Made by a program: the position numbers and the translations under genes. A stretch of 61,804 nucleotides of DNA, the filler included, from Jimgerdemannia flammicorona (Eukaryota): NCBI GenBank assembly GCA_003990765.1. It is 3 parts of 3 records of this genome, joined end to end, with 100 filler letters (N's around TTAATTAATTAA, not from the genome) between each part and the next. Parts side by side here need not be neighbours in the genome. Positions count along the whole stretch, not along the records: positions 41,274 to 61,804 come from RBNJ01001659.1; 2 more parts are not named here. One strand, written 5' to 3'. Position 1 is the stretch's first letter. Each line of letters opens with the position of its first letter. Below, in pieces: positions 10,327 through 61,804 of this stretch. The notes beneath the pieces were generated by a model. The model did no database searches. It was not told the origin of the DNA and was given only the letters and a program-made list of their open reading frames with translations.

Positions 10327-10388
10327 TGGATGGATAGTTCGGTTGTGTGGATGGATGGATTGATGGCTGGATGGATGGATGGATGGAT
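10327..10388. repeat. Imperfect (GGAT)n microsatellite in the divergent promoter
   Basis: Seen directly. Confidence 0.85.
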
Positions 10389-10773
10389 CGCAGGAAGCGT
10401 GTAGTTATGATGAGAGAGAAATGAGCAAGGGCGGGGAGACGTTTGGATCAATTGACGTGGATCGGCGAAATGGACTTTTGTACCATTGCGAGACATCTGA
10501 ATCGCGAATTCGTAATGACGACAATCGCCCCTCCCCCCCAGTTTGTTCGTCAACAACGGTGCCTTCAACACAATCCATTGAATATGCAGCCAACAACGAC
10601 ACGCGAAGCTCGTCGTCCATAATGATGCATGTTTCGAGGGTTGAAAGAGGGCGGGGAGAAGGAATCGCGCGGAAGAGCTCTACATTTGGGGCAGAACGCG
10701 ACCGATAACTCAAGTATCTAATCGTTACTTCCTAAACCTCCTTGACTCCAGTGGTCGGATACATACCATCATA

Positions 10774-20537: not shown

Positions 20538-20637
20538 NNNNNNNNNNNNNNNNNNNNNNNNNNNNNNNNNNNNNNNNNNNNTTAATTAATTAANNNNNNN
20601 NNNNNNNNNNNNNNNNNNNNNNNNNNNNNNNNNNNNN
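20538..20637. other. Artificial contig spacer N44-TTAATTAATTAA-N44
   Basis: A six-frame stop linker embedded in Ns. Confidence 0.99.
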
Positions 20638-26330: not shown

Positions 26331-27299
26331 CAAAAATGTTGTAAAAAGTGTTGTCTGAGTCTTGTGTCACCCGAATGTTACTGGTGAAAGGCATGATATG
26401 GCACTCCTCTAAGCTCTGTCAATAATTCTCTACTCCTGGGCAGGCTGCTAAGACATGCTCTAGTATCTGAACTATCCCCCCATAAAGCTCAGTACACTAC
26501 TCACAATCTCAACAGCCATCAATCTCTATTAGTCCATATGATAATCCAATATCATATTTATCCTCAAGAACTATCACCATACTACTCAGTACTTAGGAGG
26601 CATCACTTGGTACAAAGCAGCTGCCCAACTCCAAATCTGTCTCCATTCTCACATCTCACCAATCCCTACTGCCTACCAGCCAACTAGCTATCTCCCAAGA
26701 AGGCCTGTCCTGGCTCATTCTAAAGTCTCTATCAGCAAATACTCCTCCAAGAGTCTATCACCTACTCTAAGCAAATTCAACCTCCACTACTACTATGCAG
26801 AGTTTACATTCTCTCCAATATCAGGCTCAGCCAATCTCATGACTAACTAGGTCTCTACAATATCTCACCAGAACTCTTGTACTACAATCTACCAACTCTC
26901 CCCACCTGGAGCAACTCCTTCATATTCTTCTACTTGTTACTATATAGGTAAAACCTGATCTTTCAATTGTCCACTGCTAGTCTGCCCCATCTCTCCTCAC
27001 TCAGTTCTACTAGGCAGCACCTCTACTAGCTCTGAAAGACCTTCAACTGCTGCCAAAAGTCAATCAATTCCAGACCTCTATCAGTCTCCCACAGTACTAA
27101 TATCTCTCAACCAATCTGTAGTTGCCTTTCTTATTACAGCTATCCTTCAATTGCCTTCTTTAACCTCTGTACCACTTACTCAGGAAAATTCAAATAGTAC
27201 TCCAAATACTATAGCTTAGGTAATATATATTTAAAGAGACTTCTTTTGCTCAAATCACTCAGAGCAAGCTAAGCCACACAGACATCTTTCAGTGAAAGA

Positions 27300-41173: not shown

Positions 41174-41273
41174 NNNNNNNNNNNNNNNNNNNNNNNNNNN
41201 NNNNNNNNNNNNNNNNNTTAATTAATTAANNNNNNNNNNNNNNNNNNNNNNNNNNNNNNNNNNNNNNNNNNNN
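41174..41273. other. Artificial contig spacer
   Basis: Same linker as 20538-20637. Confidence 0.99.
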
Positions 41274-42365
41274 TTTTTTTTTTTTTTTTTTTTTTTTGTT
41301 TTTTTTTTTTTTAATGAACTCAATGTCTTACAGATTTTTATTAGAAGGGAACCTAGACTATATAGGCCAAAACCCTCTCCCACCACTTACCAAACACTGC
41401 CCCCCCATTAACCTAGACTAGCTATTGTCCAGCAGCTCAACCATACTAGGTGCAGTAGGGCCTATAGCAGCCCACACCTCATTCTGTACACCATGCTCTC
41501 CCTACCACCAGGGGAAATCCAGCCATACACCAACGACTGAAGATGTATGCCCAAGAACCCAACATATGTATAAGGCCACACTCGAGCCAAATAGAATAGC
41601 CTCTGCCACTCTAAAGAGAATGACAGGTAAAGAAAAACCCTTATCAAAGCACAACACAGTGGGTAGGGCCTGGTTCTCCCAGTCGAGGTAAGTAAAGGAC
41701 TTATACATGAGGTGGCAAGAGACCTCCAATACTCCACTACTCAAGCCTGTGGGTCTCGATCACATTGCTATGTCAGCTCTCAGTTCTAGTTGAGTACAGC
41801 CAAGATATCTGAAATGGATAGTCTTGGGCCCCCCAACCCCTCCTGATGATCAGGGCCCAATCCACTGAATCACCAAAAGAAGCCAAGAGTGACACCTACT
41901 ATCTAACTATGCTATACCAATCAAAAGACCCCACCAAAGCAGCACCTGCTCCAGCTCTGATGACCACCCCCAGCCTAGCACTCTACTGGTTCACCATTAT
42001 TATCCTTTCTCCTATCTGTGATAGCCATCTCCCATCCCATCCCAACAACACCCAAAAAGCAGTCACCTACACTAGAACCATGCTTGCTGAGAAGCTTGCC
42101 AAAGCCAGAGGACCCCACTATAGGCACCGAGGACCTGCAGGTAACCTACATTGAGCACTTGATGCCTATGGTTGGCCAACTCTCTATGTAGCCCAAGATA
42201 CATCAAGACAGTACTTTGTTGGTGATAGCAAAAGGAAGAAGGCACCACACCAAAACAGATATACTCCAGATGCAGCTGAAGGTACCAGAAACTACAAAAA
42301 AGTAAAGAAGACACCAATCTGATACTGATAAAGAGGTAACTTGTCACTATTGCCTCCCTCCCACT
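41274..42365 (-). repeat. Dispersed repeat of unknown class, copy 2, with poly(A) tail
   Basis: Reverse-complement homologue of 19490-20537. On the minus strand it has AATAAA followed by an A-tail (T-run 41274-41312). Confidence 0.8.
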
Positions 42366-45661: not shown

Positions 45662-48354
45662 GATATTTCTTGAGTCGGTTTTGGTGAACGGTGGTGGGGA
45701 TTATTGTGCCTGAGGGTTTTTGTAGCCAAAAGGTGGTCCCTTTTATATCTTGCACAAGGTAAGGTCCTTCCCACTTGGGCTCCAGTTTTCATGACCATGA
45801 AGCTTCTACTATATTCCGATACACTAGGACTTTGTCTCCTATCTTGATAATCTCCAAGGGCTTGTGGGTCTTTTCCACATTCCTTCATTATAGTGTCTGT
45901 ACCTTGGTTATGTAATTCTCAGCCTTCTTCCTGATTTGGTGTAGTCTCCATATTTCCATGTCCACATGTTTCCATACAGCATCTCTATTGGATGATAGGG
46001 TTCCTTGAGAACATTTTTCTCCGAACAGCATTTCTCGAGGGGTAAAGTGGGTGCTTTGTGATTGGATATCCCGGAGAGCAGATAATGCTATTGGCAGATA
46101 GTGATCCCAGTTCTTGTAGTTATCACAGATCTTGGCGATAACATTCTTGAGAGTTTTGTTGGTCCTTTCTACTTGTCCATTTCCTTGGAGGTGATAGGCT
46201 GTGGTCCGAATGTGCTGGATCTTGTACTTCTTGTAGAGAACCTCAAAGAGCTGGTTTACGAATTCTGTTCCTCTGTCTGTAGTTACTTATGTTGGGGTCT
46301 TGAACTGGCAGATGATTTCCTTGTAGAAGAAATCGGCGATTGACTATGCATTGGCTTTCTTGAGAGGTCCTGCTTCTATCCACTTCGTAAAAAGATCTAC
46401 AATGACAATGATGTATCGGTTACCAGTCAGGGTCAAGGGTAGAGGGCTGATTACATCCATTGCTATATGGGCAAATGGTACTGGTTCTATGTATGCTGAT
46501 TCTGGGGCTTGATTCCATTGGTCTTGTTTCTGTTTCTGGCATTTGTCACATGTCTTGACAAATTGTCTGATATCTTCCTCCATCCCTGGCCACTATATTG
46601 TTCTTCTTGCCTTGTTGTATGTATTCGTTCCTCCTAGATGGCCAAGTTCGTATACTGATTTCATCACTTGCTCCTTCTTGTATTCTGGTATGACCAGTAG
46701 TTTTCCTTTCTTCAATGTTTCTCTATCAGTTTTGAATTGTTTCCATGTCCTGTTGATAATCATTTGTGTCCATTCTTCCAGATGTTGGGACATCTTTCGC
46801 TGTCCCAGATATGTGATAATTCCATAGTAGAGCTCTTTATTCATGATTGATTTGTTGGTTGGAGGTGATTCGAGGTGTCTATGAGAGAGCATCTGCATTG
46901 GAATTTGTTCTTCCAGGGTAGTGCACGATGGTTACATTATAGGCTTGTAACTTCATTATCCATCTGGCATAGATTCCCTTGGGTTGTCCAGTTGTCAGTA
47001 GCCAGGTGAGAGCTGAGTGGTCCGTCTGGATGGTGAAGTGTCTTCTGGCCAGATAGTAGTGGAACTTTTCCACAGCCCAGATGACTGCAAGGCATTCCAA
47101 CTTGTAGGACTCATATTCTTTTTCAGCCCCTCGGGTTCCGCGGCTAAGATATGCAATGACATACTCTTTTTTGTCTTCTTTTTAAGCTAGAACTGCTCCT
47201 AGTCCTTGTGTGCTTGCATCCGTCTGAAGGATAAATTCTTGAGTCCAATTGGGTCATCTGAGGATGGGTGCCTGAGTTAGTCTGATCTTGAGTTCGTCAA
47301 ATGCTTTTTATTGTATACCAGTCTACTGGAACTTGGTATCCTTCTTGTTGAGTTCGTAGATTGGGCCTGCAATGTTGGAGAATCCTCTAATGAATCTGTG
47401 ATAGTAGGAGGCAAGTCCCATGAAGGCTTGGGCTTCTGTGACAGTAGTGGGCCTTGGGTATGCTGCTACCACTTGTATTTTGAGGGGGTCCGTATATGTT
47501 CCATCTCGATTGATGATATGGCCAAGATAGGAGATCTCGATTTCTGCAAACTTGCACTTCTTGGGTTTGATATACAGACCATATTGTCTTAGTCTCTCCA
47601 TTATCTGCTGTATGTGCTACAGATGTTCCTCAGGTGTCTTGCTGTAGATGATTACATCATCGACATAGACCATTATCCATCTTCCCATGTCATAGCGGAA
47701 GATTTTGTTCATCATTTGTTGAAAGCTTGCTGGTGCATTGCACATTCCGAATAGCATTCATAGGTAGATGTAGGTTCTATCTGGGGTGATGAAGGCTGAC
47801 TTTTCACTTGCCACTTCTGTGAATCCAATTTGGTGGAATCCTGAGTATAAGTCCAAGGTGCTATAGTACTGTGCTTCATCTCCCAGTGTTATAAGAATGT
47901 CACTGATGAGTGGCAGTGGTTGACAATCCTTCTTAGTGACTGCATTGAGCTTTCTGTAGTCGATACAGAGCCTTGGGGCAAATTCTCCAGGTTTGCTTCC
48001 TTTTTTCGGGGCTAGTACAACTGGTGAAGACCAGGGGCTGCTGGCTTCTTTGATGATACTGGCTTCTTCCATCTGCTTGATTTCTTCTCTGAGCCATTCT
48101 TGGTAGGCTGGCGGGACAGGTCTTGCTTTCTGATAAATTGGTTCAGTGTCTCCAGTATCTACCTCATGATAGTAGTGTGGAGTCTTTCCCTTAATATCCT
48201 TGAAATCTGTGGTGAGGACATCCTCAAATTTGTAGAGTATTTTCTTAAGTTCCTCCTTGAGTGGGAATTCATCTCCAATGGTGTAACTATGCTTGCTCGT
48301 GTTTTTCTCCTTCTTGTGCTCGAGTTCAGTAATCTTGGTGCTAGCAAATACTCC

Positions 48355-48667
48355 TCTTCCTGTGGATCCAAATCCTTTCTTTCCTCTTTTCATTTCCTCT
48401 AGATTCTTGACTTCTATGATCCTTGGCTGTATGATTGGAAAGATCAACATCTGTGCCAATTGGTCCTTCTTCTTGACTGGGAATGGAATTGTAGGATTGT
48501 AGTTCCTAGCAATGAGTAGAATTTCTCCAGTATAGTCTGAATCAATGACTCCTCCTTCAATTGTAATTTTTCTTCTAGCCAGGCTGCTTCTTGTCTTGAG
48601 AATCCCAATATGATCCTTTGGGATGGTCATCTCCAGTCCAGTTGTGAGTAGGGTGGTTGTCTGGGGT
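48355..48667 (-). CDS. dUTPase domain within gypsy pol, N-terminus removed at the Penelope-like junction
   Basis: Trimeric dUTPase motifs RSSLA, GGVIDSDYTGEI, AQMLI and RGKKGFGSTG, in frame with the RT. Confidence 0.93.
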
Positions 48668-48998
48668 GGAAGAAGGCCCAGCGGGAGCCAAGGGAGTGAA
48701 CCCAGAGCCAGTGTCAAAGCGAATGGAAGACATGTGGAAGAGCGTATATAAGGGGGACGAACAAAGAACGTAACCGAAAATGCATCAGCCGTTTATTGCT
48801 ACGTAAAAACGCGGTCCTTATATACAAAATACGACGTCCCAAAAGGGAGGACGCGCCACAACTTGGGGCGAACCGAATTAGGAACCACATGACTGCCGGA
48901 GATAAGCGGAGATAAGAGGGGAGCCAATCCCAGTTGCAGGATAAAAATCACAAACAAACACAAACAAAACAAATCCAAATCAAGATTAAAAAACATCC
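48668..48998 (-). repeat. Inverted copy of the terminal repeat (331 bp)
   Basis: Reverse complement of 49150-49480 with a few transitions. Confidence 0.97.
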
Positions 48999-49149
48999 TT
49001 GCCCCCTCCGGGGTCTCGCGCTCGCTCCAGGGTCTCGGCCTTACTCCACTCCCCTCTGCTGCCTTCGGCCCCTCGCTTCGCTTGGGCTCGCTGTGGCTCG
49101 CTCCGTTTCGGCCTCACCCCTTGCTCACGCTCACCCCTCCGGGGTCTGC
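48999..49149. other. Structured GC-rich hairpin cap with a Y-shaped apex
   Basis: Manual pairing: 49003-06/49141-44, 49010-14/49133-37, 49018-20/49128-30, 49030-33/49116-19, 49037-40/49110-13; apex hairpins at 49061-69 and 49070-86. Confidence 0.75.
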
Positions 49150-49487
49150 GGATGTTTTTTAATCTCGATTTGGATTTGTTTTGTTTGTGTTTGTTTGTGA
49201 TTTTTATCCTGCAACTGGGATTGGCTCCCCTCTTATCTCCGCTTATCTCCGGCGGTCATGTGGTTCCTAATTCGGTTCGCCCCGAGTTGTGGCGCATCCT
49301 CCCTTTTGGGACGTCGTATTTTGTATATAAGGACCACGTTTTTATGTGGCAATAAACGGCTGATGCATTTTTGGTTACGTTCTTTGTTCGTCCCCCTTAT
49401 ATATGCTCTTCCACATATCTTCCGTTCGCTTTGACACTGGCTCTGGGTTCGCTCCCTTGGCTCCCGCTGGGCCTTCTTCCTCCTCTG
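49150..49487 (+). repeat. 5' pseudo-LTR containing TATATAA (49324), AATAAA (49351) and the ORF1 start
   Basis: Positions 49167-49487 are repeated directly at 52630-52950. Confidence 0.95.
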
Positions 49488-50620
49488 CTGTACTGCCTGC
49501 CCTCGGGGCCTCTGTCCTCGTCGACGAGCTCATGGATGAGGTACTTCCTCCTCCCCCTCCCCCTGCCTTCACCCCCGCCACTGTCTCCTTTGAGACCTAT
49601 ATCTCATCTGCCATCCTTTCCCTCCCCCTGGACCTTCATCCTTCTGGTCGTCCGCTCCTCTCCCAGTTCCGGTCGGTTCTTGCTCTCTCCGCCAAGGAGG
49701 CTCGTCTCCACCGTGACGTCGACATCGTCGCTCCGCCCGCCATCCGCTACTCCATTCTCCCTGAGGCCTGCCACCAAGCCCTCTCTGAAGAGGTTCGTGC
49801 CGCCACCGCCGCCGCCAAACTCGCCGCCGCTGACACCGCCACTGCTTCTGCCACTGCCGCCTCCACCGCCTTCCACCATGCCTGTGCCGCTTTCGTGGCC
49901 TTCGCCTCCTCCCGCCTTTTGGATGCCGCCCCTTTCTGTAGCTTTGCCATCCACGAGGTTCCTTCGGTCACCGCCGACATCGATGCTGTGCGTCATTTCC
50001 TCCTCACCGGCACTTCCTTTGTCGCTCGTCTTCACGAGCAGGAGTCTTCACATGCCGCTGCTGCTGCTCACACCACCACCACTACTCCCCTCCCTGCCTC
50101 CCCCGAGGTTTTGGTCTCCGAGGCCATTCGCGCCGAAGCTCGTGCTGCTGCTCGTGCTGAGGTTCGTTCCTTCGCCACCGCCGCTGCCAAGGCCCCCTCC
50201 AAGACCCCCGCCAAGCCCAACCAGGCTTCGTCAGCCTCTTCCCGGTCCCCCTCCCCCACCAAGGCTTCCTCCTCCGTTCCCCCTGCCCCCAAGCGTGGCC
50301 GCCAACTTGGTTCTCGCCCCGTCGGGGCTTGGCCTTGCGCTGTCTGCTCCGGTCGCCTCCACCGTGCCTACTGGCACCCGGCCAAGTCCGTCTGTCCTCA
50401 TGGTGGTGTTCCTCGCGCTACTGCCCCTTCGGCTGCTCGCTCGCCTTCGGCCTCCTCTGCCGGTTCCTCCTCCGCCTCCTCTACCCGTGCCCCTGAATGT
50501 AAGGGCTGCACGAAAGCCTGTGGCCACAAGGTCTGGCACTCTGATGGGGTGTGCTCCCATTCGTCAGGCTCGCCACCTTCAAAAAAAGTCAGAGGGAAGG
50601 GGAAGGCCTCCCACTCTTAA
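49403..50620 (+). CDS. ORF1 of the Penelope-like element: Ala-rich helical region, Ser/Pro linker and two Cys/His motifs (Gag-like)
   Basis: Open 405 codons with CAVC...WHPAKSVCPH and CKGC...WHSDGVCSH. The ancestral start is probably 49415, which is ATG in the other two repeat copies. Confidence 0.8.
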   Translation: MLFHISSVRFDTGSGFAPLAPAGPSSSSAVLPALGASVLVDELMDEVLPPPPPPAFTPATVSFETYISSAILSLPLDLHPSGRPLLSQFRSVLALSAKEARLHRDVDIVAPPAIRYSILPEACHQALSEEVRAATAAAKLAAADTATASATAASTAFHHACAAFVAFASSRLLDAAPFCSFAIHEVPSVTADIDAVRHFLLTGTSFVARLHEQESSHAAAAAHTTTTTPLPASPEVLVSEAIRAEARAAARAEVRSFATAAAKAPSKTPAKPNQASSASSRSPSPTKASSSVPPAPKRGRQLGSRPVGAWPCAVCSGRLHRAYWHPAKSVCPHGGVPRATAPSAARSPSASSAGSSSASSTRAPECKGCTKACGHKVWHSDGVCSHSSGSPPSKKVRGKGKASHS

Positions 50621-52524
50621 ACTTCCCCCCAGCGTGGTTCTCCCCCGGTGTCCCCATCCCTTCTCGGATTCTGTCGTCGCTTCTGGTGCACCCTGAGTGG
50701 TTCCTCATGCTGTCCCCCCTTCGCCTTTCCCAGTTGCTTGTCCCGAACTTTCGGGTTTATTCTTCTCTTGGAACACTTTTGTCTCCTCCTTTTTCTTTGG
50801 CTGACTGCCCCCTTTCTCCCCTTCAAGTCTTTGCCTTATCCTTGGGTCCTCGCTTTGTTTTTCCTGTGACTCCCTCACAATTCTCCTTCACTGATCTGGC
50901 TCATCTAACACGTTTTCGTCATGCTCTTGACCTTGCCATCTTCTTTCAAGATCGTGGTGAGATGCCCTCTCGCTATTTTGTTCCTAGCGATTGGGTCCCC
51001 CCTCCCAATGTCTCTTCACACTGCGTATTCCTCGACATGGCTTGCTCTTTGTCCGTTCCTGGACATGCTCGCTCTTGCTTGGTTTTGGACCGTGCCATGC
51101 GTACCGTGCTTAAATCGGTCAAGCAATTGCCTATGCATTTGCTCACAGTCACTGATAAGAATCAGGGTTTTGCACTTATTCCTAAGTCGCTCTACCTTGA
51201 TGGCCTTTCTGCCCTCCTTCGAGCCATGGCTTATGAGCCTAGTGCTCTTGGATTGGATGAGGTTCTCATACTTCTTCGGGTTTCTCTGGCTCATGCTAGA
51301 TTGCTTTCGGATTCCCCGTTCGTGAACCCCATTTTTAACTTCTTCCAGGACTCTTTGTCCTCCCCGGACATTTCTCTTCTGGTTTTTTATGCTCTTCCTA
51401 AAGTTCACAAGCCTGTTTTGGCTTGGCGTCCTATTACGGCTACTTACAGTTCTCCTACCACCGAGATTTTGAAATGGTTATCCCGTTTCTTTCTCTCCTG
51501 GATGGCTCTCTTACAACACTGTCTTGGGCCTGAGTATACTATTCTTCGGGATACTCAGGAGCTTGCCCTTCTCTGCTCCACCATTGTGCCTGTTCACCGC
51601 TTTTCTCATTTGGCCTCTGGTGACTTCTTTTCTTTCTATACTGCTATTCATTTTGATGAGATCGATGATTGCCTTCGCTTCTTGGGCTCCTTAGTTTTTC
51701 CTTTGGACTCCCCAGTTTCATTGGCTTCCATTGTTGAGCTTACACTCCTTGTCTGCGGCTCTAATTATTTTGAGTCGGCCCTTGGCTCCTTTCACCAGAC
51801 TTCTGGTATTGCCATGGGAACGAATTGTGCCCCCACCCTTGCCAATCTTGTTGGCCTGGCCCATGAATTGCGTGTGTTATGTAATATTACTTCACCTCTT
51901 TCCATTGCATTCCAGGCTAGGGATATCTTCTTTCGCCGATACATTGATGACTTTATTATCTTCGCTATTGCTGGCATCGATATCCCTAGTATATTCCTGG
52001 GCGTCTACCCTCCCCATCATTCTATTACTTGGGTGTGCGGTACAACTAGTATTCCCTTTTTGGACCTTTCCATTTCCCTTTCTCCCTTCCGAACTGTTGT
52101 CTATTCCCGTTTTCCCTATTCCCAACAGTTCTCTGACTTCTTGTCCAATCATCCTCGTCGCACTCTTCTTGAATGTGTTCGTGGTGAGGCTCGTCATCTT
52201 GCATTATGCTGCTCCCGTCGTTCTGACTGGGTGTCTGCTGTTCGGGTTCTTGGCAACTTTGTGGTCCATCGTCGTGCCTACCCTATTTCTATCATTCGCG
52301 ATCTGCTTGCTTCTGTTGAATGGTCTGTTGTTCGCTCTTCCCTCCTCTCTCCCCTTTACCCCCCCTCCCTTCCCTCTCTCCCCCCTTACCCTCTCCATAC
52401 CCCCTCTTCTTTCCCACCCCCGATTCTTGTCGTACCATTTGATCGTGCTCGCTGGGTCGCTCAATGCCCTGATACCGTCCTGCACTCTTCTCTTTCATGC
52501 CATGGACTTTCATCTCTTTCCTGA
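50581..52524 (+). CDS. Penelope-like reverse transcriptase, uninterrupted, in the -1 frame relative to ORF1
   Basis: Motifs TDKNQG, FYALPKVHKP...WRPI, GDFFSFYTAI, QTSGIAMGTNCAPTLANL, FRRYIDD, IPFLDL, FLSNHP, GEARHL..CCS and RAYP. The ORF ends without a GIY-YIG domain. Confidence 0.93.
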   Translation, partial: KKSQREGEGLPLLNFPPAWFSPGVPIPSRILSSLLVHPEWFLMLSPLRLSQLLVPNFRVYSSLGTLLSPPFSLADCPLSPLQVFALSLGPRFVFPVTPSQFSFTDLAHLTRFRHALDLAIFFQDRGEMPSRYFVPSDWVPPPNVSSHCVFLDMACSLSVPGHARSCLVLDRAMRTVLKSVKQLPMHLLTVTDKNQGFALIPKSLYLDGLSALLRAMAYEPSALGLDEVLILLRVSLAHARLLSDSPFVNPIFNFFQDSLSSPDISLLVFYALPKVHKPVLAWRPITATYSSPTTEILKWLSRFFLSWMALLQHCLGPEYTILRDTQELALLCSTIVPVHRFSHLASGDFFSFYTAIHFDEIDDCLRFLGSLVFPLDSPVSLASIVELTLLVCGSNYFESALGSFHQTSGIAMGTNCAPTLANLVGLAHELRVLCNITSPLSIAFQARDIFFRRYIDDFIIFAIAGIDIPSIFLGVYPPHHSITWVCGTTSIPFLDLSISLSPFRTVVYSRFPYSQQFSDFLSNHPRRTLLECVRGEARHLALCCSRRSDWVSAVRVLGNFVVHRRAYPISIIRDLLASVEWSVVRSSLLSPLYPPSLPSLPPYPLHTPSSFPPPILVVPFDRARWVAQCPDTVLHSSLSCHGLSSLS

Positions 52525-52629
52525 TGCCCTCTGATTGCTCGTTCGCGTCTTCCTTCTGTTTCTTCTTCAATCCATTGCTCTCGCTTTGCATTTTTGTCAC
52601 CTTTTGGTGCCTCCGGTTCTGCTGGAGAG

Positions 52630-52950
52630 GATTTGGATTTGTTTTGTTTGTGTTTGTTTGTGATTTTTATCCTGCAACTGGGATTGGCTCCCCCTTTATC
52701 TCCGCCTATCTCTGGCGGTCATGTGGTTCCTAATTCAGTTTGCCCCGAGTTGTGGCGTGTCCTCCCTTTTGGGACATCGTATTTTGTATATAAGGACCGC
52801 GTTTTTATGTGGCAATAAACAGCTGATGCAATTTTAGTTATGTTCTTTGTTTGTCCCCCTTATACACGCTCTTCCACATGTCTTCTGTTCACTTTGACAC
52901 TGGCTCTGAGTTCGCTCCCTTGACTCCTGCTGGGCCTTCTTCCTCCTCTG
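52630..52950 (+). repeat. 3' pseudo-LTR (321 bp)
   Basis: Direct repeat of 49167-49487. Confidence 0.97.
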
Positions 52951-55900
52951 TAATTTTAGTATGGAGTGGTAAAGGGGACCTAGGTAGAATCAGGAGCTGG
53001 GGAGACCACTTGATATGGGGAGAATGGTATCAACCAGGGTGGGAGCCAGTGAGGGTTGGCTCTTACTACTGCTCTGCAGACAGAGGTGAGCATATTGTAT
53101 AGATTAAGGGTCTTTTAGAAGAGGGTGTTCTATTGGAGAATAGGGTAGATGTTTGGGAGGTGACTTCAATATGGTTTGGAATCTACAGTTGGATAGAACT
53201 GATGGAGGAAGGAGTGCTGGTGAGAGAAGTGGTGGCCTGAATATATGGAAGAAGGTAGAGAACCTTAGTTCCTTAGGGGATATGGGCAGAATATATTAGA
53301 GAGACAAGAGGATCTATATATACTAAGTGAATGGCCTGGGTACAGGATTGACTGGATCTTGATAGCCAAATGCCGGGGTATGGATGTTTGGAGGGCTATG
53401 GAGGTAGAGTGGTATCAATGGTCAGATCACTGGGGGCTGTTAGGGCAGGGGCAGTTTGGGGAGAGTGGAGATAGATCCAGACATTGGCATCTTAACTCCT
53501 CTCTGCTGGATGAGAAGGTATTATAGGACCCTTGAGTGGAGGACATTCAGGTGAGGATTGCTAGCTGGATACATAAGGGCTCACCAGTGGATATCTGGTA
53601 GACAAAGTTGAAAAAGGCAGCAAGGAGTTACTGGGGAGGAGTTGATAGAGATACTGGGAGATAGAGAAGGAAAAGAGTGAGGTGTGCTTCCAATTGGTTG
53701 ATTAGATTGTAGATAGAATGGGCAGAGTTGTTAAACTCTGGAGAGGGGGATGATTAGAGGCTAGGGCAAGCTAAGCTGGAAGTGATAGAGTTGCAACAAG
53801 TATTGAGAGAGGAGGAAGAGTCACATTTGAAGGGAATGGCAACTTGGCTGAGATAGCAGGGGCTTGAAGAGAGTGAGAGGCCTACAAGATACTTATCAAG
53901 GCTCCTCTAGGCAAGAAGGGTGTAGCATCGATGGGATGGAGTCCTGGACATAGAGGGAGAAATGGTACATGGTACACTACAGATCTTGGGGCTATTGAAG
54001 AAGCAGTGGAGGGGGCTATAGAGTGAGGAGGAAGGGGGTGCTGATGCTGAGACAATTGAAGACACTTTGGAGAGTTGGGAGCTACTGTATGTAGAGGGTC
54101 TGGGGGATTTGATCCTATCAGTCCAAGAGGAGGAGATCCAGAGAGTCCTGGTGGTAACTAAGCTTGGAATGGCACCAGGAGAGGATGGTTTACCTTGGGA
54201 CTTTTGGAAGAAGATGGTGAGAAACTAGGAGAGATAGCAGCCCTCTGTGACCTTGTTCTTCTAAATAATCAGTGGGTTGGAGGATAAGACCTAGGGCTGG
54301 TGACTCTGTTGTATAAAGACAAGGGAAGGAGGGAGGACTGAAAGAACTGAAGACTGATTATGCTTCTGGATATGGACAGGAAGATGATACTAAGATGATT
54401 GTAGTGAGATTACAGAAGGTTGTCCAACAGGTACTGGGAGAGGAGCAGCATGGCTTTGTTGGTGGCAGGCTTATTAGGGATGAGACAGCTTAGGTCTATA
54501 GTATCATTGAAGGGGTACAGACTAGTAGATTAGATGAGAGACTAGTCTTTTTGGACCAGGAGAAGGCCTATGACCACATTCAGTGGGTATGGCTGGGCAA
54601 GGTGCTGGACAGAATTGGAATTCTCCTAATCTTTGGAGCTTCTATATTGAGTCTGTTGGAGGGCAGTAGGGCAGCACTGTTGTGTAATGGCCACTGAGGC
54701 CTGGCATTTCCCTTGAGAAGAGAAGTTCCTCAGAGAGATCCACTGTCTCCTATTCTATATGCCCTTTCATTAGAACCTTTAATGGATAGAATTTGACAGA
54801 AGGTGGCAGGGCTCTTTCTATGATGTAGTGTGGAAGGTGGGGGCCTTTGCAGATAATATGGTGGTTGGACTTAGATCAGTGGCAGATATTGAGGTACTCA
54901 AGGAGATGGTCAAATGGTATGAGGCACATTCTGGAGTGAAACTCAACTGGCATAAGTGTGAGACAATAGTGTTAGACAATGGGCTAGTAGGAGGGGATGT
55001 CATGGAACAATTGTCTCTACAGGAGAGGCAGTGAGATCTCTGGGCATCTTCCTTTCAGTATATGGTTCTGTTTTGCTGAGAGAGGAGGGTGGCCATCTGG
55101 GGGAGGCTCTTAGAGGTTGGGGAGATTGTTGCATCTTCTTAGTAGACTGGGTATCAATTCTGAATGTCTACTGATTCCCCAAGCTGTGGTATATTGCTTA
55201 TCACTTAGACTTTCTAGCTTAGATGGTGAAGAGGCTGCTGAAACTGGCTAGGGATTAGATTTGGACTAGGAGGTAGTCCCAGATCAGTTGGAATACTCTT
55301 TCTAAACCAGTGGTTTGAGGGGGACTAAGATTAGTGGATTTTCCTAAGAGGCTATACTGCCTGAGAGCTTAGTGGTTGAAGTGGGCTATTGAACTATGAG
55401 GGGGGGGGATGGGTACCACTGATGCAGAAGGTGTGGGAGTTGAGGTTCTCTTCAAGAGAGACCTCAGGAGACCTTCTATCTCTGATAGATCTGGGTGGAA
55501 GCTGTTGGCTATGGTATAAAGGCTTCTGATGGGGAGTGGTGGATGGCATACACTACATAGGCTTACACTGGCATAGTAATGAAGGGGAGATGTGTTGGGA
55601 CCAGCAATGTGGAGATGGGACAGATTACTGTTGGTGGGCACTCTACTTCTGGAGTTTGATATTGGTGAGAGAGTGGAGTGTCAGCAGGGTCTCAGTCGGG
55701 ATCTCTGGCCTAGCAGTTGGCAAGCAGTGAAGATTGGTGAGGAGTGGGACTGGGCAGGAGTCTGGTCATAGAGTGCTGAGGTGAAGAAGTGGCTTCCTCC
55801 CAAGTTTTGGATAGTTTGGTGGCAGATACTACAGAGGAATATCATGTTGAATTTTCATACTGGATATCTAGTAGATGGTGGACTTTTAGAATGTGAGAAG

Positions 55901-56325
55901 TGTTATAATATAGGACAAGTTGGGAGATTGATGCAGATACCAAAACATTGACTGGGAGAGTGTGAGATTCTGGAGAACTTTTGGATAGCAGCAGGGAAAT
56001 AGCTAGGGGTGAAGAGGAGACCAGATGGAGAGAGAGGTCATTGAGAAGATTTGAGGACTAGGTTGGTGAGAGGTGTGGGTAATGAATGACTTACTGTAGG
56101 GTGGGTTTTAGATGTATGGATAGGGTTGGCTGGATATTGGCACTTTGTTTTTGAGAAGGGGTGATAGATGAGATTGCTGGAGAGGTTTCTAAGATAGGAG
56201 GGGTTGTTGGGAGATATATTGACTGGGTGGTGGATTGGATGGGGTCTACAGAATAGGCATTGGTACCAACTGGTAGGTGGAAGGGATCTGTGAACAAAGT
56301 GGGGGATGAGTGGAGATAGTTAATG
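52951..56325 (+). mobile_element. Degenerate LINE ORF2 beginning inside the APE domain
   Basis: VGSYYCS, WSDH, APGEDGLP, LDQEKAYDH and AFADN; colinear with 58680-61685. Confidence 0.92.
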
Positions 56326-56339
56326 GCCACTGCTTGACC

Positions 56340-59300
56340 CACTAACATTCATGTCACACAACCTTTGGAACATACTTTTGGATCATTTATTGGAGAAAGC
56401 TACTAAGAACATGGCAACAAACAAGCAAGCTGACATGTGTACTGAGTCAGGTGGACCTGGGGCCTTCAACTGGCAACATATTGGAAGAGAGTATAATTGG
56501 AGATGGGATCTTTCAGGGGTCCAAGTGGGCAGGGCAGTTCAGGCAGTAGTGGTGGCACTGGCAGAGGAGCAGAAGGGTAGGAGGAGAGAAGTTTCATGGA
56601 TATGCTGAAGGCTGGGGGATGGCCTGCTGGGTCTTATGGTGGGCAGGCATAGAGAAAGAGAAAACAAAGAGAAGTGAAGACATTTAGTTTCTTGTCTGAT
56701 AGATAGAAGGGCTGATGGTGAAGTCGCTAGGAGTAGAGGTGGACTACTGATGGGGGTATGATGGTAGATCAGAAAAAAATCAAGATGTGACAGTTGATGG
56801 AGGGGTCAGACCATTGGACCCAAAGCAGATGGAAGACCTGGCTAACAGTGTGATGGGGCTGGTGGTGGCGCCATTACTCAAGAAGTCAACTTCAGAGTTT
56901 GCTATAATCTTGTACTTTCAGGGCTTAGTAGTGACAGTGAAGATGGTTCTGGGGCTTATCTCTAGACAGATGGCTGGAGCTGCCTCAGTGAGATTTCTGA
57001 AGGGGCTGGAGGGGGTTAAGGTGGGATTTGTGGAGGCAGGCCCACTGGAGGATGTATTGAAGACAGGAGTTACTGTAGGAGAGGTGGTGGTCTCTATGGT
57101 ATACTGCTTAAGGTGGGACCCCAGGGTGGTTCAGTTTTGGTAAAGGGGGTGCCTATAGTGATGATGGCTGAGACCAGGAAGAGGGTTGAGGAGGTGATGG
57201 TAGAGTATGGAGATATAGTTGATATTAGATTTCAGGTGTAGAAGGGGACCACTCTCAGGACTGAAGATATGGATGTCAGAATCTGACTTTCTGGGAAAGA
57301 GGCCATGGGGAAGATGAGTGACTGGCCTTCAGTCATGCTGTGGGGAGCCTTTATTTGTAAGGTGTCAAGAGTGAAGGAGAGGGAGAAGAAGGAGAAAGAT
57401 CTGCTAGAGGCATTGGAGGAACAGAGTGGAGTAATGGAAAGAAGAACAAAGGCCTGGAAGGCATATGTGGAGATGACATACTTGGAGATTATTGAGGGGA
57501 AGTATATTCGAGTGGACAAGAAAATGTGGGAGAGGTCTCAGGGTTGCAAGTTGCAGAGGAAGCTGTTGGCAAAGCTAGGGGGAGAGACATTGATGTCTGC
57601 TGGGGGTAGCAAGGATGCTGGGGGAGCCAAGGCAAGTGTCTGGTCTGATAGAAATGGTGTGGTGGAAGGGGGGGGTCAAGTGGAGGCCAGGAAGATGCCT
57701 AGCTGTGATCTATATAATGATGGCACATTTGAAGTCTGGGAGGAGGACTGAGAGGATTCTTCTTCCCCTTCTGCTCTTGTCAGGCAGGGACCTACAGTGA
57801 GAAGATAAGGGGCAGTGGATGTGCCAATGCATGGGGCCCAGTGAGTATGATTTGGAGTTCCTGAGGTGGAAAAGAGGGGTCAGGTAGTGACTATAGGTGA
57901 GGAGGAATTAGTGAATGTCCCTGAGGAGGGGTGGGATGAGGCTGTGAGTGGGGAGGCTGACACAATAATGCTAGATGGGGGTTGACCAGCAATGCCTGGG
58001 GCGAAGGAGGTGGGGAACTTACTCTGGATATGTCAGATGATGAATAACTTGGCTGCTGAGAAGTTGAGAGAGGTGGACTTGAGGGTGATGAGTGATGAGC
58101 ATTGGGTAAGGGTCCTGCATAGTGATGGGGTGGTGGAGGCATTGAAGACAGAAGTACTTGCAGTTTTTCTGGAGGAGGAGGGGTATGAGGTCAATGAGGA
58201 GAGGAAGGCTGAGTTGGCTGTGGTGGCAGGGGAGTGGGCAGTCTACTGTTGGACAGAGCAATATGGCCTGCAGCTCTGGCAGAATGCCTGTCAAGAGTAT
58301 CATGAGTATTTTGAAGAGAAGGAGGAGGGGGAACTAAATGAGCTCTGAGGGGATTGGAGGCAAGGAGAATTAAGAAAGAGGAGTAGGATGCAGAACATAT
58401 CTTAGACTTGGTACAGGAGCAGATAGAGATGGAGTAGTAAAGAGAGTATGGGGACTTCACATCAAAATATTATTCTTAATGAACAGTACAACCAATATTT
58501 TCTCTCTTAATGTGAATGGGCTATGGGGTTCAGGGTGGTATAAGAACATTTTCACTTGGCTTAAGGAACTAGAGGCTGATCTCTTCCTGCTGCAGGATGT
58601 ATGGTGTGAGAATGAAGTAGATCAAGTGGAGTGGACTAGAGAATGGAGAGGAGCTGTAGTATGGATTAGTAAAGTAGCAATATTGGTATAGAGTAGCAAG
58701 GGGGATCTAGGGAGAATCAGGAACTAGAGAGACTGCTTGGTATGGGGGGAGTGGTGTCAACCTGGATGGGAGTTAGTGAGAGTTGGCTCTTGCTACTGCC
58801 CAGTGGCCAGGGGTGAGAGGATTGTATGAATTAAGGAGCTTTTAGAGGAGGGCACTTTCTTAGAAAATGGGGTAGATGTTCTGGGTGGGGACTTTAATAT
58901 GGTGCAAAACCCTCAGATAGATAGAACTGATGGAGGGAGGAGTGCTGGTGGAAGAAGTAGTGGCCTGGATGTATGGGAGGAGGTAGAGAACCTTAGCTCC
59001 TTAGAGAATATGGGCAGAACAAAGTGGGGAGAAAGGAGGATCTACATGTACTGAGTGAATGGCTTAGGTACAAGAATTGACTAGATTCTGTCAGCTGAAT
59101 TCTGGGACTTAGATGTCTGGAGGTCTTTAGAGGTAGAGTGGTGCCCATAGTCTGATTATTGGGATCTGTTAGAGCAGAGGCAGTTTGGGGAGAGTGGAGA
59201 TATCTGGGCATTGGTACCTTAACTCTTCTCTGCTGACTGAGAAAATGTTGTAGGACCCATGGGTAGAGGACATCCAGAAGAGGATAGTGAGCTGGAGACA

Positions 59301-61804
59301 GGAAGGCATGATAGTAGGTGTTCAATAGATAAGGTTGAAAGAAGCTGTGAGGGTATACTGGGGGGGAGCTGGAAGGAATGCTGAGAGGCAGAGAAGGGAA
59401 AGGATGAGGTATGCTTTGAATCAGTTGATTATGATAAACTCTGGTGAGATGGATGATTGGAGGTTAGTGAGAACTAAGATAGAGGTGGTGGAATTACAAC
59501 AGGTGCTGAGAGAGGAGAAGAAGATGTATATGAAAGGAATGGCAGCTAGGCTGAGATGGTAGGGGCTTGAGGAGGGTGAAAGGCCTACTAGGTACTTATC
59601 AAGGCTCCTTAAGACAAGAAGGGTGAGACATCGATGGGATGGAATTCTTGATACAGAAGGGAAAATAGTTCATAGTACACAACAGATATTGGGGGTGTTG
59701 AAGGAGAGGTGGAGAGGGTTGTAGAGTGAAGAGAAAGGGGGTGCTGATGCTAAAACAATCAGTGATACCCTGGAGAATTGGAAGCTGCTGCAGGTAGAGG
59801 GCCTGGGGGATTTGATCCTACCAGTTTAGGAGGAGGAGGTTCAGAGAGTCCTTGTGGCAACTAAGCTTGGAATGACATCTAGAGAGGATGGATTATCTTG
59901 GGACTTTTGGAAGAAGATGGCAAGGGTGTTCCTGGGGTATTAGGAGAAATGACAGCTCTATGTGACCTTATTCTCCTAAATAGTGAGTGGGTTGGAGGGC
60001 AGGACTTAGGACTGGTGGCCCTCCTGTACAAGGAAAAGAGAGAGAGAGAAGACTGGAAGAATTGGTGACTAATCATGCTCCTAGATATGGACAGAAAGAT
60101 GGTTACTAAGGTGATCATGGCAAGGTTGTAGAAAGTTGTCCAACAGGTACTGGGGGAGGAGCAGCAGAGATTTGTTAGAGGCAGACTTATCAGAGATAGA
60201 ACAGCCTGGATCTATAGTATCATTGAAGGAATATGGGCTTGTAGATTGGATGGGAGGCTGGTCTTTCTGGACCAGGAGAAGGCTTATGATCACATTCAGA
60301 GGGTGTAGCTGGACAAGGTGCTGGACAGAATTGGTGTTAGGGAATGGGCTAGTGGGAGGGAATGTCATAGGAACAATTGTCCCTACAGGAGATGGTGCAG
60401 TACCTGGGTATCTTTCTCTCAGTATATGGATCTGTCCTCTCACAGGTGTGGTGGAAGAGGAGGGTGGTCATCTGGGGAGAGACTCTTAGAAGTTGAGAAG
60501 GTCACCATATCTCACTAGCAGACTGGATATCAATTCTGAATATCTACTGATTCCCTAAGCTATGGTATATTACTTATTACTTAGACTTCCCAGCTTGAGT
60601 GGTGAAGAGGATAATGAAGATAGCTAGAGCTTGGATTTGGGCTGGGAGGCAGTCCCAGATCAGTTGGGATACCCTATCATTGCTGGTGGTGAGAGGAGGG
60701 CTAGGACTGGTGGATCTTCCTAAGAGACTTCACAGCCTGAGAGCTTGGTGACTGAAGCAAGCTGCTGAACTATAGGGAGCAAGATGGGTACCACTGATGC
60801 AGAAGGTATGGAAGATGATATTCTCCCTAAGAGAGTCCTCAGGGGACTTACTATTGTTGGTAGGTCTGGGTGGGAGCTGTTGGTTAAGGTATAAAGACCT
60901 CTGGTGAGGGGTAGTAGATGGAGCTCACCATATTGATTTGTACTGACATAGTAATGAAGGGGAGATGCTGTGGGGTCCAAAGATGTAGAGATGGGACAGA
61001 CTGCTATTGGGGGGTACTTCACTGATTGAGTTTGATATTGGTGATAGAGTAGAGTATCAGAGGGGATTGGGTCAGGATATCTGGCCTGGCAGTTGGCAAG
61101 CAGTGAGGATTGGTGAGGAGTGAGACTAGGCAGGAGTCTGGTCATAGAGTGCTGAGATGAGGAGGTGGCTTCCTTCTAAGTTCTGGGTAGTATGGTGGAG
61201 GATACTTTATGTTGAATTTCTATACTGGGCATCTGGTGGATGGGAGAAGACTGGATTGTGAGGAGTGTTATAATGTTGGACAAATTGGGAAATTTGTACA
61301 GATAACAGAACATTGGCTGGGAGAGTGTGAGGTTCTGGGGGACTTTTAGTTAGTAGTAGGTAGACAGTTGGAGGTTAAGAGGGGATCAGATGGGGAGAGA
61401 GATCAATGGGAAGATTTGAGAACTAGGTTGGTGGGAGGTGTGGGCAATGACTAGCTCACTATAGGGTGGGTTTTAGCTATATTGGTAGGGCTGGCTGGAT
61501 ATTGGCTCTTTGTTTTTGAGAAGAGGTAACAGATGGGTCTGCAAGAGAAGTTGTTAAGATAGGAGGAGTTGTTGGGAGATTTATTGACAGGATGGTGGTT
61601 GGGTTGGGGTCCCCAGGGTGGGTACTATTGCCATCTGGTAAAAGGAATCTGTGAACAGAGTAGTGGATGGGTTGTGATAGTTAATAACTTAGTAGTCATA
61701 GGGTGGGGAGAGAAAGATCTCCTAGGGGGATCAAATAGGGGTGGGCTCAATGTATTTATATCAGATAGATGAGTGTATTAATAAAGGATGGAGTCCAAGA
61801 GACA
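56340..61804 (+). mobile_element. Near full-length degenerate LINE (ORF1 ~56411-58440; ORF2 from 58479) with an internal RT deletion
   Basis: MNSTTNIFSLNVNGL and GGDFN are present. The segment with QGDPLSP and ADD is missing at about 60334. The 3' end has AATAAA...AGTCCAAG. Confidence 0.92.

What the first reader, a model, noticed from the sequence alone, without database searches (positions are those of the whole stretch)
48668..52950. Nearly intact endonuclease-less Penelope-like retroelement with a fold-back, three-repeat architecture at a non-telomeric site
Seen: an inverted repeat (48668-48998), a 151-nt structured spacer, a direct repeat overlapping the ORF1 start, ORF1 with two Cys/His motifs, an open PLE-type RT with YIDD and no GIY-YIG, and a second direct repeat. 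It keeps many CpGs and open frames while the flanking LINE and gypsy elements are stop-riddled, so it looks young. Known: EN-less PLEs (Athena, Coprina) are usually telomere-associated, and many PLE repeats carry hammerhead ribozymes. I see neither telomeric repeats nor a hammerhead core here. Inference: this is a distinct lineage that may replicate through a hairpin-ended DNA and integrate without its own nuclease.
Basis: partly seen in the sequence, partly recalled or inferred. Interest (0 to 1): 0.9.

Follow-up and report, generated by a model that had tools for sequence, protein, structure and literature searches.

The report
Endonuclease-less Penelope-like retroelement, fungal genome
A fairly young copy of a Penelope-like jumping gene that carries no nuclease of its own sits in a repeat-rich piece of a fungal genome, and its mirror-image repeats are the usual insertion pattern of this class rather than evidence of a new way of replicating.

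Summary
The repeats, both reading frames and the CpG contrast are real. ORF2 is a Penelope-like (PLE) reverse transcriptase with DKN and YIDD motifs and no GIY-YIG domain. Its nearest relatives also lack one. The host looks like a Mucoromycota fungus.

In an IQ-TREE tree the RT sits in a small, well-supported group with a Racocetra protein and metagenome proteins. That group lies apart from a GIY-YIG-bearing clade and from a long-ORF clade that includes a Puccinia protein.

The "fold-back, three-repeat" layout is the published standard form of PLE insertions: a pseudo-LTR plus an adjacent inverted 5'-truncated copy (PMC8557442). So it does not argue for hairpin-DNA replication.

Three sub-claims fail:
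- The spacer is not structured.
- ORF2 has one in-frame stop near its end.
- "Non-telomeric" is weak, because the element lies on a roughly 20.5-kb all-repeat piece joined to the rest of the window by artificial linkers.

No hammerhead or telomeric repeat was found. Soil-metagenome contigs show a multicopy family whose differences fall mainly at third codon positions.

Verdict: a new variant of a known kind, of moderate interest.

The parts
47323..48664 (-). Left flank: fragment of a gypsy-type pol (dUTPase + RT), broken off at the element boundary
   Evidence: Pfam dUTPase E 7e-21 and RVT_1 E 7e-7 on the frame 47758-48792. Contigs of runs X1 and X2 follow this flank up to 48667 and then continue with other sequence, so they are gypsy copies without the element (table 7).
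48665..48998 (-). Inverted copy of the terminal repeat (R_inv); its outer end is the element's 3' terminus
   Evidence: 334 nt, 96% complementary to 49150-49483. 13 mismatches, so the arms are not identical as an assembly fold-back would be.
48999..49149 (+). 151-nt spacer, C/T-rich like the element's sense strand, with CCCCTCCGGGGTCT near both ends in direct orientation
   Evidence: Sequence. Not more stable than shuffles (z +1.5). No significant similarity to the region upstream of R2 (score 52 against shuffles 43.6 +/- 6.3). A 12%-diverged copy is present in run X2 (record 11).
49150..49489 (+). Upstream direct repeat (R1, pseudo-LTR). Carries TATATAAGG (49324), AATAAA (49351) and the reverse of TATATAAGG (49395).
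   Evidence: X3 record 18 spans the spacer/R1 joint (49106-49273, 1 difference).
49532..50620 (+). ORF1, 362 aa: Ala/Ser/Pro-rich with two C-terminal Cys/His clusters; no detectable homologue
   Evidence: No Pfam hit at E<=10. Atlas best score 0.83. 18 of 27 listed differences in other copies fall on codon position 3 (p 4e-4).
50581..50587 (+). A7 run inside the 76-nt ORF1/ORF2 frame overlap (possible -1 slip site)
   Evidence: The downstream fold is no better than shuffles (z +0.6).
50707..52524 (+). ORF2, PLE-type reverse transcriptase. The frame is open from 50545 and the likely start is the ATG at 50707. Motifs LSLGPRF, TDKNQG, LPKVHKP, IAMGTNCAP, YIDD.
   Evidence: P0007 (76% identical) starts at the equivalent Met. 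RVT_1 only E 0.031. 7 of 9 listed differences fall on codon position 3.
52522..52524 (+). In-frame TGA that truncates ORF2
   Evidence: similarity to P0001 (PLIAR...) continues in the same frame after the stop.
52630..52950 (+). Downstream direct repeat (R2); its end is the element's 3' terminus
   Evidence: 92.8% to R1 and 91.5% to R_inv. 15 of 31 variable columns are C>T or G>A changes private to R2.
52951..56324 (+). Right flank: 5'-truncated LINE copy beginning at the element's last base, followed by a longer LINE copy from about 56430
   Evidence: BLAST to the copies at 58679-61685 and 37763-41046. Joint aligned. Exo_endo_phos and RVT_1 appear in sister copies.

Best explanation
This is one copy of an endonuclease-deficient Penelope-like retrotransposon family living in a Mucoromycota-type fungus.

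Anatomy. The unit is about 3.46 kb. It holds ORF1 (a Cys/His-knuckle protein, presumably nucleic-acid binding) and ORF2 (a PLE reverse transcriptase of the 'DKN' type). It ends in a terminal sequence of about 320-340 nt. That terminal sequence occurs three times: at the 3' end (R2), as an upstream direct copy (R1, a pseudo-LTR made by a partial tandem), and as an upstream inverted copy (R_inv). This is the ordinary complex insertion form of PLEs.

Shown:
- The RT family and the absence of GIY-YIG in this copy and in its relatives.
- The repeat anatomy.
- A multicopy family whose copies differ mainly at third codon positions.
- Both outer joints (gypsy|R_inv and R2|LINE) lie within 4 nt of the same position of the repeat. 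The element therefore presents its 3' terminus to the chromosome on both sides.

Inferred:
- Transcription runs from the pseudo-LTR.
- The RT extends chromosomal 3'-OH ends that it did not cut itself, such as a break, a gap, or another element's integration intermediate.
- The right-hand DNA end primed a full-length cDNA that jumped onto a second RNA 3' end, giving R1. The left-hand end primed a short cDNA, giving R_inv. The two were then joined in the middle.
For: RT identity:
- 2864 library proteins match at E<=1e-3; the best is P0001 at 51% identity.
- Four of 100 scanned hits carry a C-terminal GIY-YIG, which ties the family to PLEs.
- The conserved motifs align. DKN is present in 106 of 150 rows, while the GIY-YIG clade members checked have DKG.

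EN-less:
- No GIY-YIG in 11 element frames.
- 0 of 53 stop-terminated RT frames of metagenome relatives has one at E<=1e-5, and 0 of the 33 that are 700 aa or longer at E<=0.01.
- Relatives end shortly after the same C-terminal motif.

Placement: window + P0001 (99), then + Racocetra P0005, P0004 and P0006 (99). This group lies on the far side of a 98 branch from the GIY-YIG clade (99) and from the long-ORF clade with Puccinia P0015 (98).

Architecture. The same layout is described as typical for PLEs in PMC8557442. A two-ORF, repeat-flanked EN-less fungal PLE with a DKN motif is described in PMC13159263 (section 17 read).

Real rather than artefact: the arms differ at 13 of 334 positions, mostly at CpG sites.

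Family:
- 229 contigs of run X1 lie on the stretch and cover all 30 bins, at identities from under 90% to over 99%.
- Listed differences are third-position biased: ORF1 18 of 27, ORF2 7 of 9.

Host: RPL6e is 70-76% identical to Mucorales proteins.
Against: - No named PLE reference (Coprina, Athena, PLE-X, TERT) could be put in the tree, so the clade label is open.
- Only one full copy was seen. Its two flanks are different elements (gypsy on the left, 5'-truncated LINE on the right), so there is no empty site or target duplication. The integration steps are inference.
- Independent priming from two DNA ends does not predict that R_inv and R1 stop at the same inner base (GGATG), or that they share a 13-nt insertion absent upstream of R2.
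- R_inv and R1 are closer to each other (96%) than either is to R2 (92-93%).
- The host genome is not held. A nuclease supplied by another element, and closeness to a chromosome end, therefore cannot be excluded.
- Atypical hammerheads escaped standard descriptors before, as in D. virilis (PMC4209133).
- The third-position count uses only the 40 best-supported of 452 differences, many of them from a few contigs.
Confidence: 0.7

Rival explanations
1. The element replicates through a snap-back (hairpin-ended) DNA, and R_inv-spacer-R1 is the opened hairpin end.
For: The two arms are symmetric. They share the same inner boundary and a 13-nt insertion that is missing upstream of R2, and they are more alike (96%) than either is to R2. 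The near-palindromic CCCCTCCGGGG sits at both spacer ends.
Against: - The outer end of R_inv coincides with the element's own 3' terminus, which a random opening of a hairpin would not give.
- The spacer is not structured.
- Only 3 of 78 related loci have any inverted repeat of 60 nt or more.
- The same layout is routine in EN+ PLEs (PMC8557442).
Confidence: 0.06
2. The element is moved by a nuclease borrowed from another element of the same genome, either a LINE APE endonuclease or a GIY-YIG-bearing PLE. On this view it is a parasite, or an EN-loss derivative of the PLE-X kind.
For: LINEs with Exo_endo_phos domains surround it. EN loss inside EN+ clades is documented (PMC8557442). The complex pLTR layout is attributed by those authors to EN properties.
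Against: - No sequence similarity between the element's 3' end and the LINE copies.
- The RT lies outside the GIY-YIG clade on a 98-supported branch.
- According to PMC8557442 (abstract), EN+ PLEs are known from animals, the green lineage and protists; fungi are not listed.
- No CxC motif was seen by eye in the ORF2 N-terminus.
Confidence: 0.12
3. Passive co-integration. A LINE reverse transcriptase switched template from LINE RNA to the 3' end of the PLE RNA, making a PLE-LINE chimera.
For: The element's last base abuts the first base of a 5'-truncated LINE copy in the same orientation. This is the geometry of known template-switch chimeras.
Against: One joint only, and no microhomology at it. 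It does not explain R_inv. The family is multicopy and under selection for its own RT. Nested insertions in a repeat nest can produce such a joint by chance.
Confidence: 0.07
4. A telomere-adding Coprina-type element that capped a chromosome end or a healed break and was later internalised by rearrangement and further insertions.
For: 5 of 78 related loci carry CCCTAA-type repeats next to the element. Published Coprina are terminal (PMC13159263). The piece holding the element is only 20.5 kb and consists entirely of repeats.
Against: No telomeric repeat at either joint or anywhere in 41274-61804. The 3' terminus has no reverse-complement telomeric stretch.
Confidence: 0.05

Closest known systems
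Coprina (EN-deficient PLEs of fungi and some protists/plants), e.g. Coprina-1_Alen of Ascochyta lentis (PMC13159263)
   Same: No endonuclease. DKN motif, RT and thumb. Fungal host. Coprina-1_Alen also has two ORFs and flanking direct repeats, and is of similar size (about 4.5 kb against 3.5-4.3 kb here).
   Different: No telomeric repeats at the ends and no hammerhead found. An inverted repeat copy is present. ORF1 has Cys/His clusters and no coil domain was detected. The RT does not fall in the long-ORF clade that contains the Puccinia protein, but no named Coprina sequence was in the tree.
Canonical EN+ PLEs (Penelope/Poseidon, Neptune, Nematis) and Naiad/Chlamys (PMC8557442)
   Same: Pseudo-LTR from a partial tandem plus an adjacent inverted 5'-truncated copy. 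RT with N-terminal motifs and thumb.
   Different: No GIY-YIG at either end. DKN instead of DKG/DKA. No CxC motif. No hammerhead.
PLE-X (EN-less families inside Chlamys; Chara, Selaginella) and MjPLE01 (PMC8557442)
   Same: EN-less PLEs that are not tied to telomeres.
   Different: PLE-X keep the CxC motif and canonical hammerheads and derive from an EN+ clade. Here both are absent, and the RT lies apart from the GIY-YIG clade.
Athena / Terminons of bdelloid rotifers
   Same: EN-less, with two ORFs. The Atlas's nearest clusters to ORF2 are mostly from rotifers (leads only).
   Different: Athena is described as rotifer-specific, telomere-associated, and carrying telomeric repeat stretches and hammerheads (PMC8557442). 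The host here is a fungus.

Membership tests
Penelope-like elements (class) | RT with PLE N-terminal motifs (GxKF/Y-like, DKG-type), core RT with YxDD, and thumb; groups with PLE RTs | tested here: met
   LSLGPRF, TDKNQG and YIDD align with relatives. Hits include proteins with RT + C-terminal GIY-YIG. PF26215 HTH_animal is precomputed on the closest hits.
Penelope-like elements (class) | Pseudo-LTRs from partial tandems, often with an inverted 5'-truncated copy | tested here: met
   Feature as described in PMC8557442.
Penelope-like elements (class) | Hammerhead ribozyme motif in the pseudo-LTR (reported for all database PLEs in PMC4209133; absent in Naiads) | tested here: not met
   Rfam at E<=10: none. 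No CUGANGA(4-30)GAAA in the element. No CUGANGA in any repeat copy. Atypical variants could be missed.
EN+ PLEs (C-terminal GIY-YIG) | GIY-YIG endonuclease after the RT | tested here: not met
   Pfam on ORF2, on the frame after the stop, and on other frames: none at E<=10. Only about 430 nt remain after the ORF2 stop.
Naiad/Chlamys (N-terminal EN+) | N-terminal GIY-YIG linked by a CxC motif | tested here: not met
   ORF1 and the ORF2 N-terminus have no GIY-YIG. No CxC seen in the translation (by eye).
Coprina | EN-less PLE RT with DKN motif | tested here: met
   DKN named for Coprina-1_Alen in PMC13159263.
Coprina | Attachment to telomeres with reverse-complement telomeric repeats at the element end | tested here: not met
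   No such repeats at the joints or in 41274-61804. The chromosomal position itself is unknown.
Coprina | RT inside the Coprina clade in a tree with named references | not testable with these tools
It is outside the long-ORF clade holding a Puccinia sorghi protein, but calling that clade Coprina is my assumption.
Athena | Rotifer host, telomeric, two ORFs | tested here: not met
   The host gene RPL6e is closest to Mucoromycota. Two ORFs are present, but no telomeric repeats.
PLE-X | EN-less but retaining the CxC motif and canonical hammerheads | tested here: not met

The most novel reading that the evidence does not exclude
The element represents an undescribed lineage of two-ORF PLEs, without endonuclease or hammerhead, in early-diverging fungi and soil protists. 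It inserts inside chromosomes by letting both 3' ends of a pre-existing break (or of another retroelement's integration intermediate) prime reverse transcription. It would then show that the tandem/inverted pseudo-LTR layout of PLEs is produced by the RT and its template, not by the GIY-YIG nuclease as currently proposed. The many EN-less relatives that assemble as closed 3-6 kb units in metagenomes would belong to the same neglected group.
Probability: 0.2. Interest if true: 0.65.

Novelty: new variant of a known kind. Interest (0 to 1): 0.4.

Why it matters
EN-less PLEs are held to be confined to chromosome ends. The tandem/inverted repeat layout of PLEs is attributed to the cleavage properties of their GIY-YIG nuclease (PMC8557442). 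Here an EN-less copy shows that same layout, with no telomeric repeat at its joints.

If other copies confirm it, the layout would be a property of the reverse transcriptase and template. It would also give a fungal system for asking how PLE RTs, the closest relatives of telomerase, find 3'-OH ends.

The architecture itself is ordinary, and interstitial EN-less PLEs are already on record.

Tried and rejected
- Whole genome: none is held, so other copies, telomere distance and EN+ PLEs in the host could not be examined.
- RNA: no RNA holder was listed for the stretch, so nothing can be said on expression.
- Closer relatives with flanks:
  - The metagenome scan gave only loci at 21-30% identity.
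  - Genome contigs and viral contigs gave none.
  - A profile search in the word-indexed protein collection gave 5 hits, and none of the five brought an organism name.
- ORF1:
  - No Pfam hit.
  - No similarity to P0012.
  - A profile of 24 ORF1 or N-terminal regions of relatives scored the window's ORF1 at -0.1 bits, below several shuffles.
  - Atlas best score 0.83 with low recognition.
- Spacer: no significant similarity to the region upstream of R2 and no excess structure.
- Frameshift: an A7 run exists, but the downstream fold is not special. A homologue starts at the internal Met, so a separate ORF2 start is as likely.
- Repeat RNA fold: z -0.6.
- Rfam on 17 related loci: nothing at E<=0.1.
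- PDB by sequence: only generic RT matches, with TERT at about 3e-4.
No fold search of the RT C-terminus or of ORF1 was made.
- Earlier findings of this scan: nothing on this genome or sequence.
- Strand-asymmetric deamination as the cause of the LINEs' G>C skew was rejected: per-base G>A and C>T rates are similar.
- Gladyshev & Arkhipova 2007 is not held. It is cited only through other papers' words.
- The supplementary reference sequences of PMC8557442 were not opened, and sequences from outside the session could not be used, so a tree with named clades was left out.

Full report
**What is there.** The repeat finder and BLAST confirm three copies of one sequence of about 320-334 nt:
- an inverted copy at 48665-48998 (R_inv);
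- a direct copy at 49150-49483 (R1), 151 nt further on and 96% complementary to R_inv;
- a second direct copy at 52630-52950 (R2), 92.8% identical to R1 and 91.5% to R_inv.

Between R1 and R2 lie two frames. ORF1 runs stop-to-stop 49364-50620, with its first ATG at 49532 (362 aa). It has two Cys/His clusters near its end. The ORF2 frame, 50545-52524, is open for 659 codons and carries LSLGPRF, TDKNQG, LPKVHKP, IAMGTNCAP and YIDD.

CpG observed/expected is 0.75 in the element, against 0.27 in the left flank and 0.03 in the right flank.

- The spacer folds no better than shuffles (z +1.5).
- The ATG of ORF1 lies about 43 nt beyond the repeat.
- ORF2 is cut by an in-frame TGA at 52522-52524. Similarity to the closest homologue continues in the same frame after it (10/22 identical, E 5e-4).
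- The coding strand has only 12.7% A, and 5-9% at third codon positions. Stop codons are therefore rare, and a second 446-aa frame overlaps ORF1. Open frames alone say less here than usual.
- Better evidence that both ORFs are real comes from other copies. Among the 40 best-supported differences listed by read laying, 18 of the 27 in ORF1 and 7 of the 9 in ORF2 (from the ATG at 50707) fall on third codon positions (binomial p 4e-4 and 0.008). The caveat is that 412 further differences were not listed, and several listed ones come from the same contigs.
- ORF2 probably starts at the ATG at 50707. A 76%-identical fragment (P0007) starts at the equivalent Met, relatives start about 45 residues before the LxLGxKF motif, and the three listed differences between the ORFs are not at third positions.
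- A -1 slip at the A7 run 50581-50587 remains possible, but no special downstream structure supports it.

**What the RT is.**
- Pfam sees only a weak RVT_1 match (E 0.031).
- The exhaustive library search finds 2864 proteins at E<=1e-3. P0001 is 51% identical; the rest are about 20-36%.
- Of 100 hits scanned out of 152 held, four have RT followed by GIY-YIG: P0037, P0098 and P0101 and P0050. This ties the family to Penelope-like elements. The other 96 show no endonuclease, though many are fragments.
- The motif at the 'DKG' position is DKN in 106 of 150 rows, including the window. The members of the GIY-YIG clade that I checked have DKG. DKN is the form named for the fungal EN-less element Coprina-1_Alen (PMC13159263, section 17 read).
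- A profile of 40 relatives matches solved RTs only generically, with TERT at about 3e-4.

**No nuclease.**
- None of 11 frames of the element gives a GIY-YIG hit at E<=10, or E<=1 for the first three. These frames include ORF1, the ORF2 N-terminus and the frame beyond the stop.
- In alignment the relatives end 10-60 residues after a shared C-terminal motif.
- Among 78 related metagenome loci, 53 have an RT frame closed by a stop. None has GIY-YIG at E<=1e-5, and none of the 33 that are 700 aa or longer has it at E<=0.01.

**Placement.** A FastTree of 150 rows and an IQ-TREE (LG+C20, short search) of 50 rows agree.
- The window joins P0001 (99).
- It then joins P0005 from Racocetra fulgida (Glomeromycota), P0004 and P0006 (99).
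- This group, with seven other long-branched rows including a Stenamoeba transcript, lies across a 98-supported branch from everything else.
- On the other side are the GIY-YIG clade (7 rows, 99) and a clade of roughly 900-1200-aa single-ORF proteins (10 rows, 98) that holds a Puccinia sorghi protein.
- That long-ORF clade fits the published description of Coprina (one ORF, extended N-terminus, basidiomycetes), but this is my assumption. No named Coprina, Athena, PLE-X or TERT sequence could be entered, and the tree is unrooted.
- The window row has an unusual amino-acid make-up, which the tool flags.

**Host and setting.**
- The RPL6e frame at 10645-11322 is 70-76% identical to Mucorales proteins, with Glomeromycotina and Mortierellomycotina close behind.
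- That gene, however, is on a different piece of the window. Two 100-nt blocks of N44-TTAATTAATTAA-N44 at 20538-20637 and 41174-41273 look like artificial six-frame-stop linkers between separate contigs.
- The element lies on the piece 41274-61804, which holds only repeats.
- 'Non-telomeric' therefore means only that no telomere-type repeat lies within 7.4 kb to the left or 8.9 kb to the right.

**Flanks.**
- On the left is a gypsy-type pol (dUTPase + RT) on the minus strand, broken at 48664. Contigs of two soil-metagenome runs follow it to 48667 and then continue with other sequence, so they are copies of that gypsy without the element. That continuation is not found elsewhere in the window.
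- On the right, a 5'-truncated LINE copy in plus orientation starts at the very next base after R2.
- There is therefore no split target, no target duplication and no empty site.

**The layout is ordinary for PLEs.** Craig et al. 2021 (PMC8557442; abstract and passages read) describe full copies preceded by a partial tandem copy that forms a pseudo-LTR, 'often' with an inverted 5'-truncated copy immediately adjacent. They note that such structures trouble assemblies.
- The window's arms differ at 13 of 334 positions, and 21 of 31 variable columns across the three copies are at CpG sites. This fits decay in the genome and not an assembly fold-back.
- X3 record 18 spans the spacer/R1 joint with one difference. 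X2 record 11 holds a 12%-diverged copy of the spacer.

**How it likely works.**
- Directly visible: R_inv ends against the gypsy, and R2 ends against the LINE, within 4 nt of the same position of the repeat (...CTTCTTCC[T/A]CC). The element therefore turns its 3' terminus to the chromosome on both sides.
- This is what one expects if two DNA 3' ends facing each other each primed reverse transcription on the 3' end of element RNA. A long product from the right would have jumped to a second RNA 3' end, giving R1. A short product from the left gives R_inv.
- Since the element encodes no nuclease, the ends must pre-exist or be made by something else. This part is inference.
- It leaves two things unexplained. 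R_inv and R1 stop at the same inner base and share a 13-nt insertion absent upstream of R2. They are also more alike than either is to R2. Possible causes are a discrete short repeat-only RNA as template, copying of one arm from the other, or gene conversion between close inverted repeats. I cannot choose among them.

**Hammerheads and telomeric repeats.**
- Published EN-less PLEs carry reverse-complement telomeric stretches and hammerheads (PMC8557442). Fungal PLEs were reported with type-I hammerhead variants (PMC4209133).
- Here Rfam finds none at E<=10. The CUGANGA(4-30)GAAA core is absent from the element. No repeat copy holds CUGANGA.
- Atypical variants may still escape.

**Relatives in metagenomes (seen in passing, but relevant).**
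- 31 of 78 loci have start-to-end overlaps of 60-371 nt, 28 of them exact. They therefore assemble as closed units of 2.9-6.3 kb.
- One contig holds a 3196-nt unit more than three times at 100% identity.
- The units hold either one ORF of about 1000 aa, or an ORF1 of about 280-550 aa plus an RT of about 470-820 aa, like the window's 3.46-kb unit.
- Five loci have CCCTAA-type repeats. Of the 17 end-overlapping loci that I sent to Rfam, none shows an Rfam match at E<=0.1.
- Head-to-tail arrays, which are known for PLEs, explain this most simply. Circular molecules are not excluded.

**Comparison and verdict.**
- It works like, and by RT motifs belongs to, the EN-less PLEs.
- It is not filed under Coprina or Athena. 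Telomeric repeats and hammerheads were tested and not met, and clade membership could not be tested.
- EN-less PLEs away from telomeres are already known: PLE-X in Chara and in Selaginella rDNA, and MjPLE01. PLE families are annotated in Gigaspora, a Mucoromycota fungus (PMC13443276, one passage).
- My literature searches turned up no description of the structure of such an element in Mucoromycota. This is a limited search of open-access text only.
- I rate it a new variant of a known kind, interest 0.4.
- The hairpin-replication idea gets about 0.06.

Noticed in passing
window 20538-20637 and 41174-41273: Two 100-nt blocks of 44 N + TTAATTAATTAA + 44 N, the look of artificial six-frame-stop linkers. 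The window is probably three separate contigs strung together (1-20537, 20638-41173, 41274-61804).
   Followed up: partly
window 21000-33000, 35500-41050, 52951-61800: Several LINE copies (Exo_endo_phos, RVT_1) have a coding strand with G about 31-35% and C about 12% (GC skew about 0.5) and almost no CpG (1-5 per 3-5.5 kb). Per-base G>A and C>T rates between copies are similar, so the skew looks inherent to the family and not a one-strand deamination.
   Followed up: partly
L001-L078 (metagenome loci related to ORF2): 31 of 78 contigs close on themselves through end overlaps of 60-371 nt, giving units of 2.9-6.3 kb. L071/L072 hold a 3196-nt unit more than three times at 100% identity. Either head-to-tail arrays or circular molecules of EN-less PLE-type elements.
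   Followed up: partly
L003, L028, L032, L042, L057: CCCTAA-type (L032: AAACCCT) repeat runs next to the RT gene. In L042 they lie on both sides of the element, as in telomere-attached EN-less PLEs.
   Followed up: no
window 47758-48792 (minus strand): Gypsy-type pol with a dUTPase domain upstream of the RT (Pfam E 7e-21). Other copies of this gypsy are present in the soil-metagenome runs.
   Followed up: no
window 4408-5349, 7763-10404, 10645-11746: Host genes on the first piece: a C2H2 zinc-finger protein, eIF3 subunit E (split by introns, minus strand) and ribosomal protein L6e. CpG observed/expected there is 1.01, against about 0-0.3 in the repeats.
   Followed up: partly
window 49484-52629: The element's coding strand is 68% pyrimidine (A 12.7%), and third codon positions are 75-80% C/T. 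This bias creates long spurious open frames in other plus-strand frames (49356-50696, 51695-52534).
   Followed up: partly
window 49324-49403 (and the same places in R_inv and R2): Inside each repeat copy, TATATAAGG and its reverse complement lie 71 nt apart and bracket an AATAAA whose TAA closes the ORF2 frame. Possible promoter and poly(A) signals; not tested.
   Followed up: no
window 41318-42364 and 19490-20526: A roughly 1-kb repeat, 76% identical, in inverted orientation right next to both linker blocks, at the ends of two of the joined pieces.
   Followed up: no
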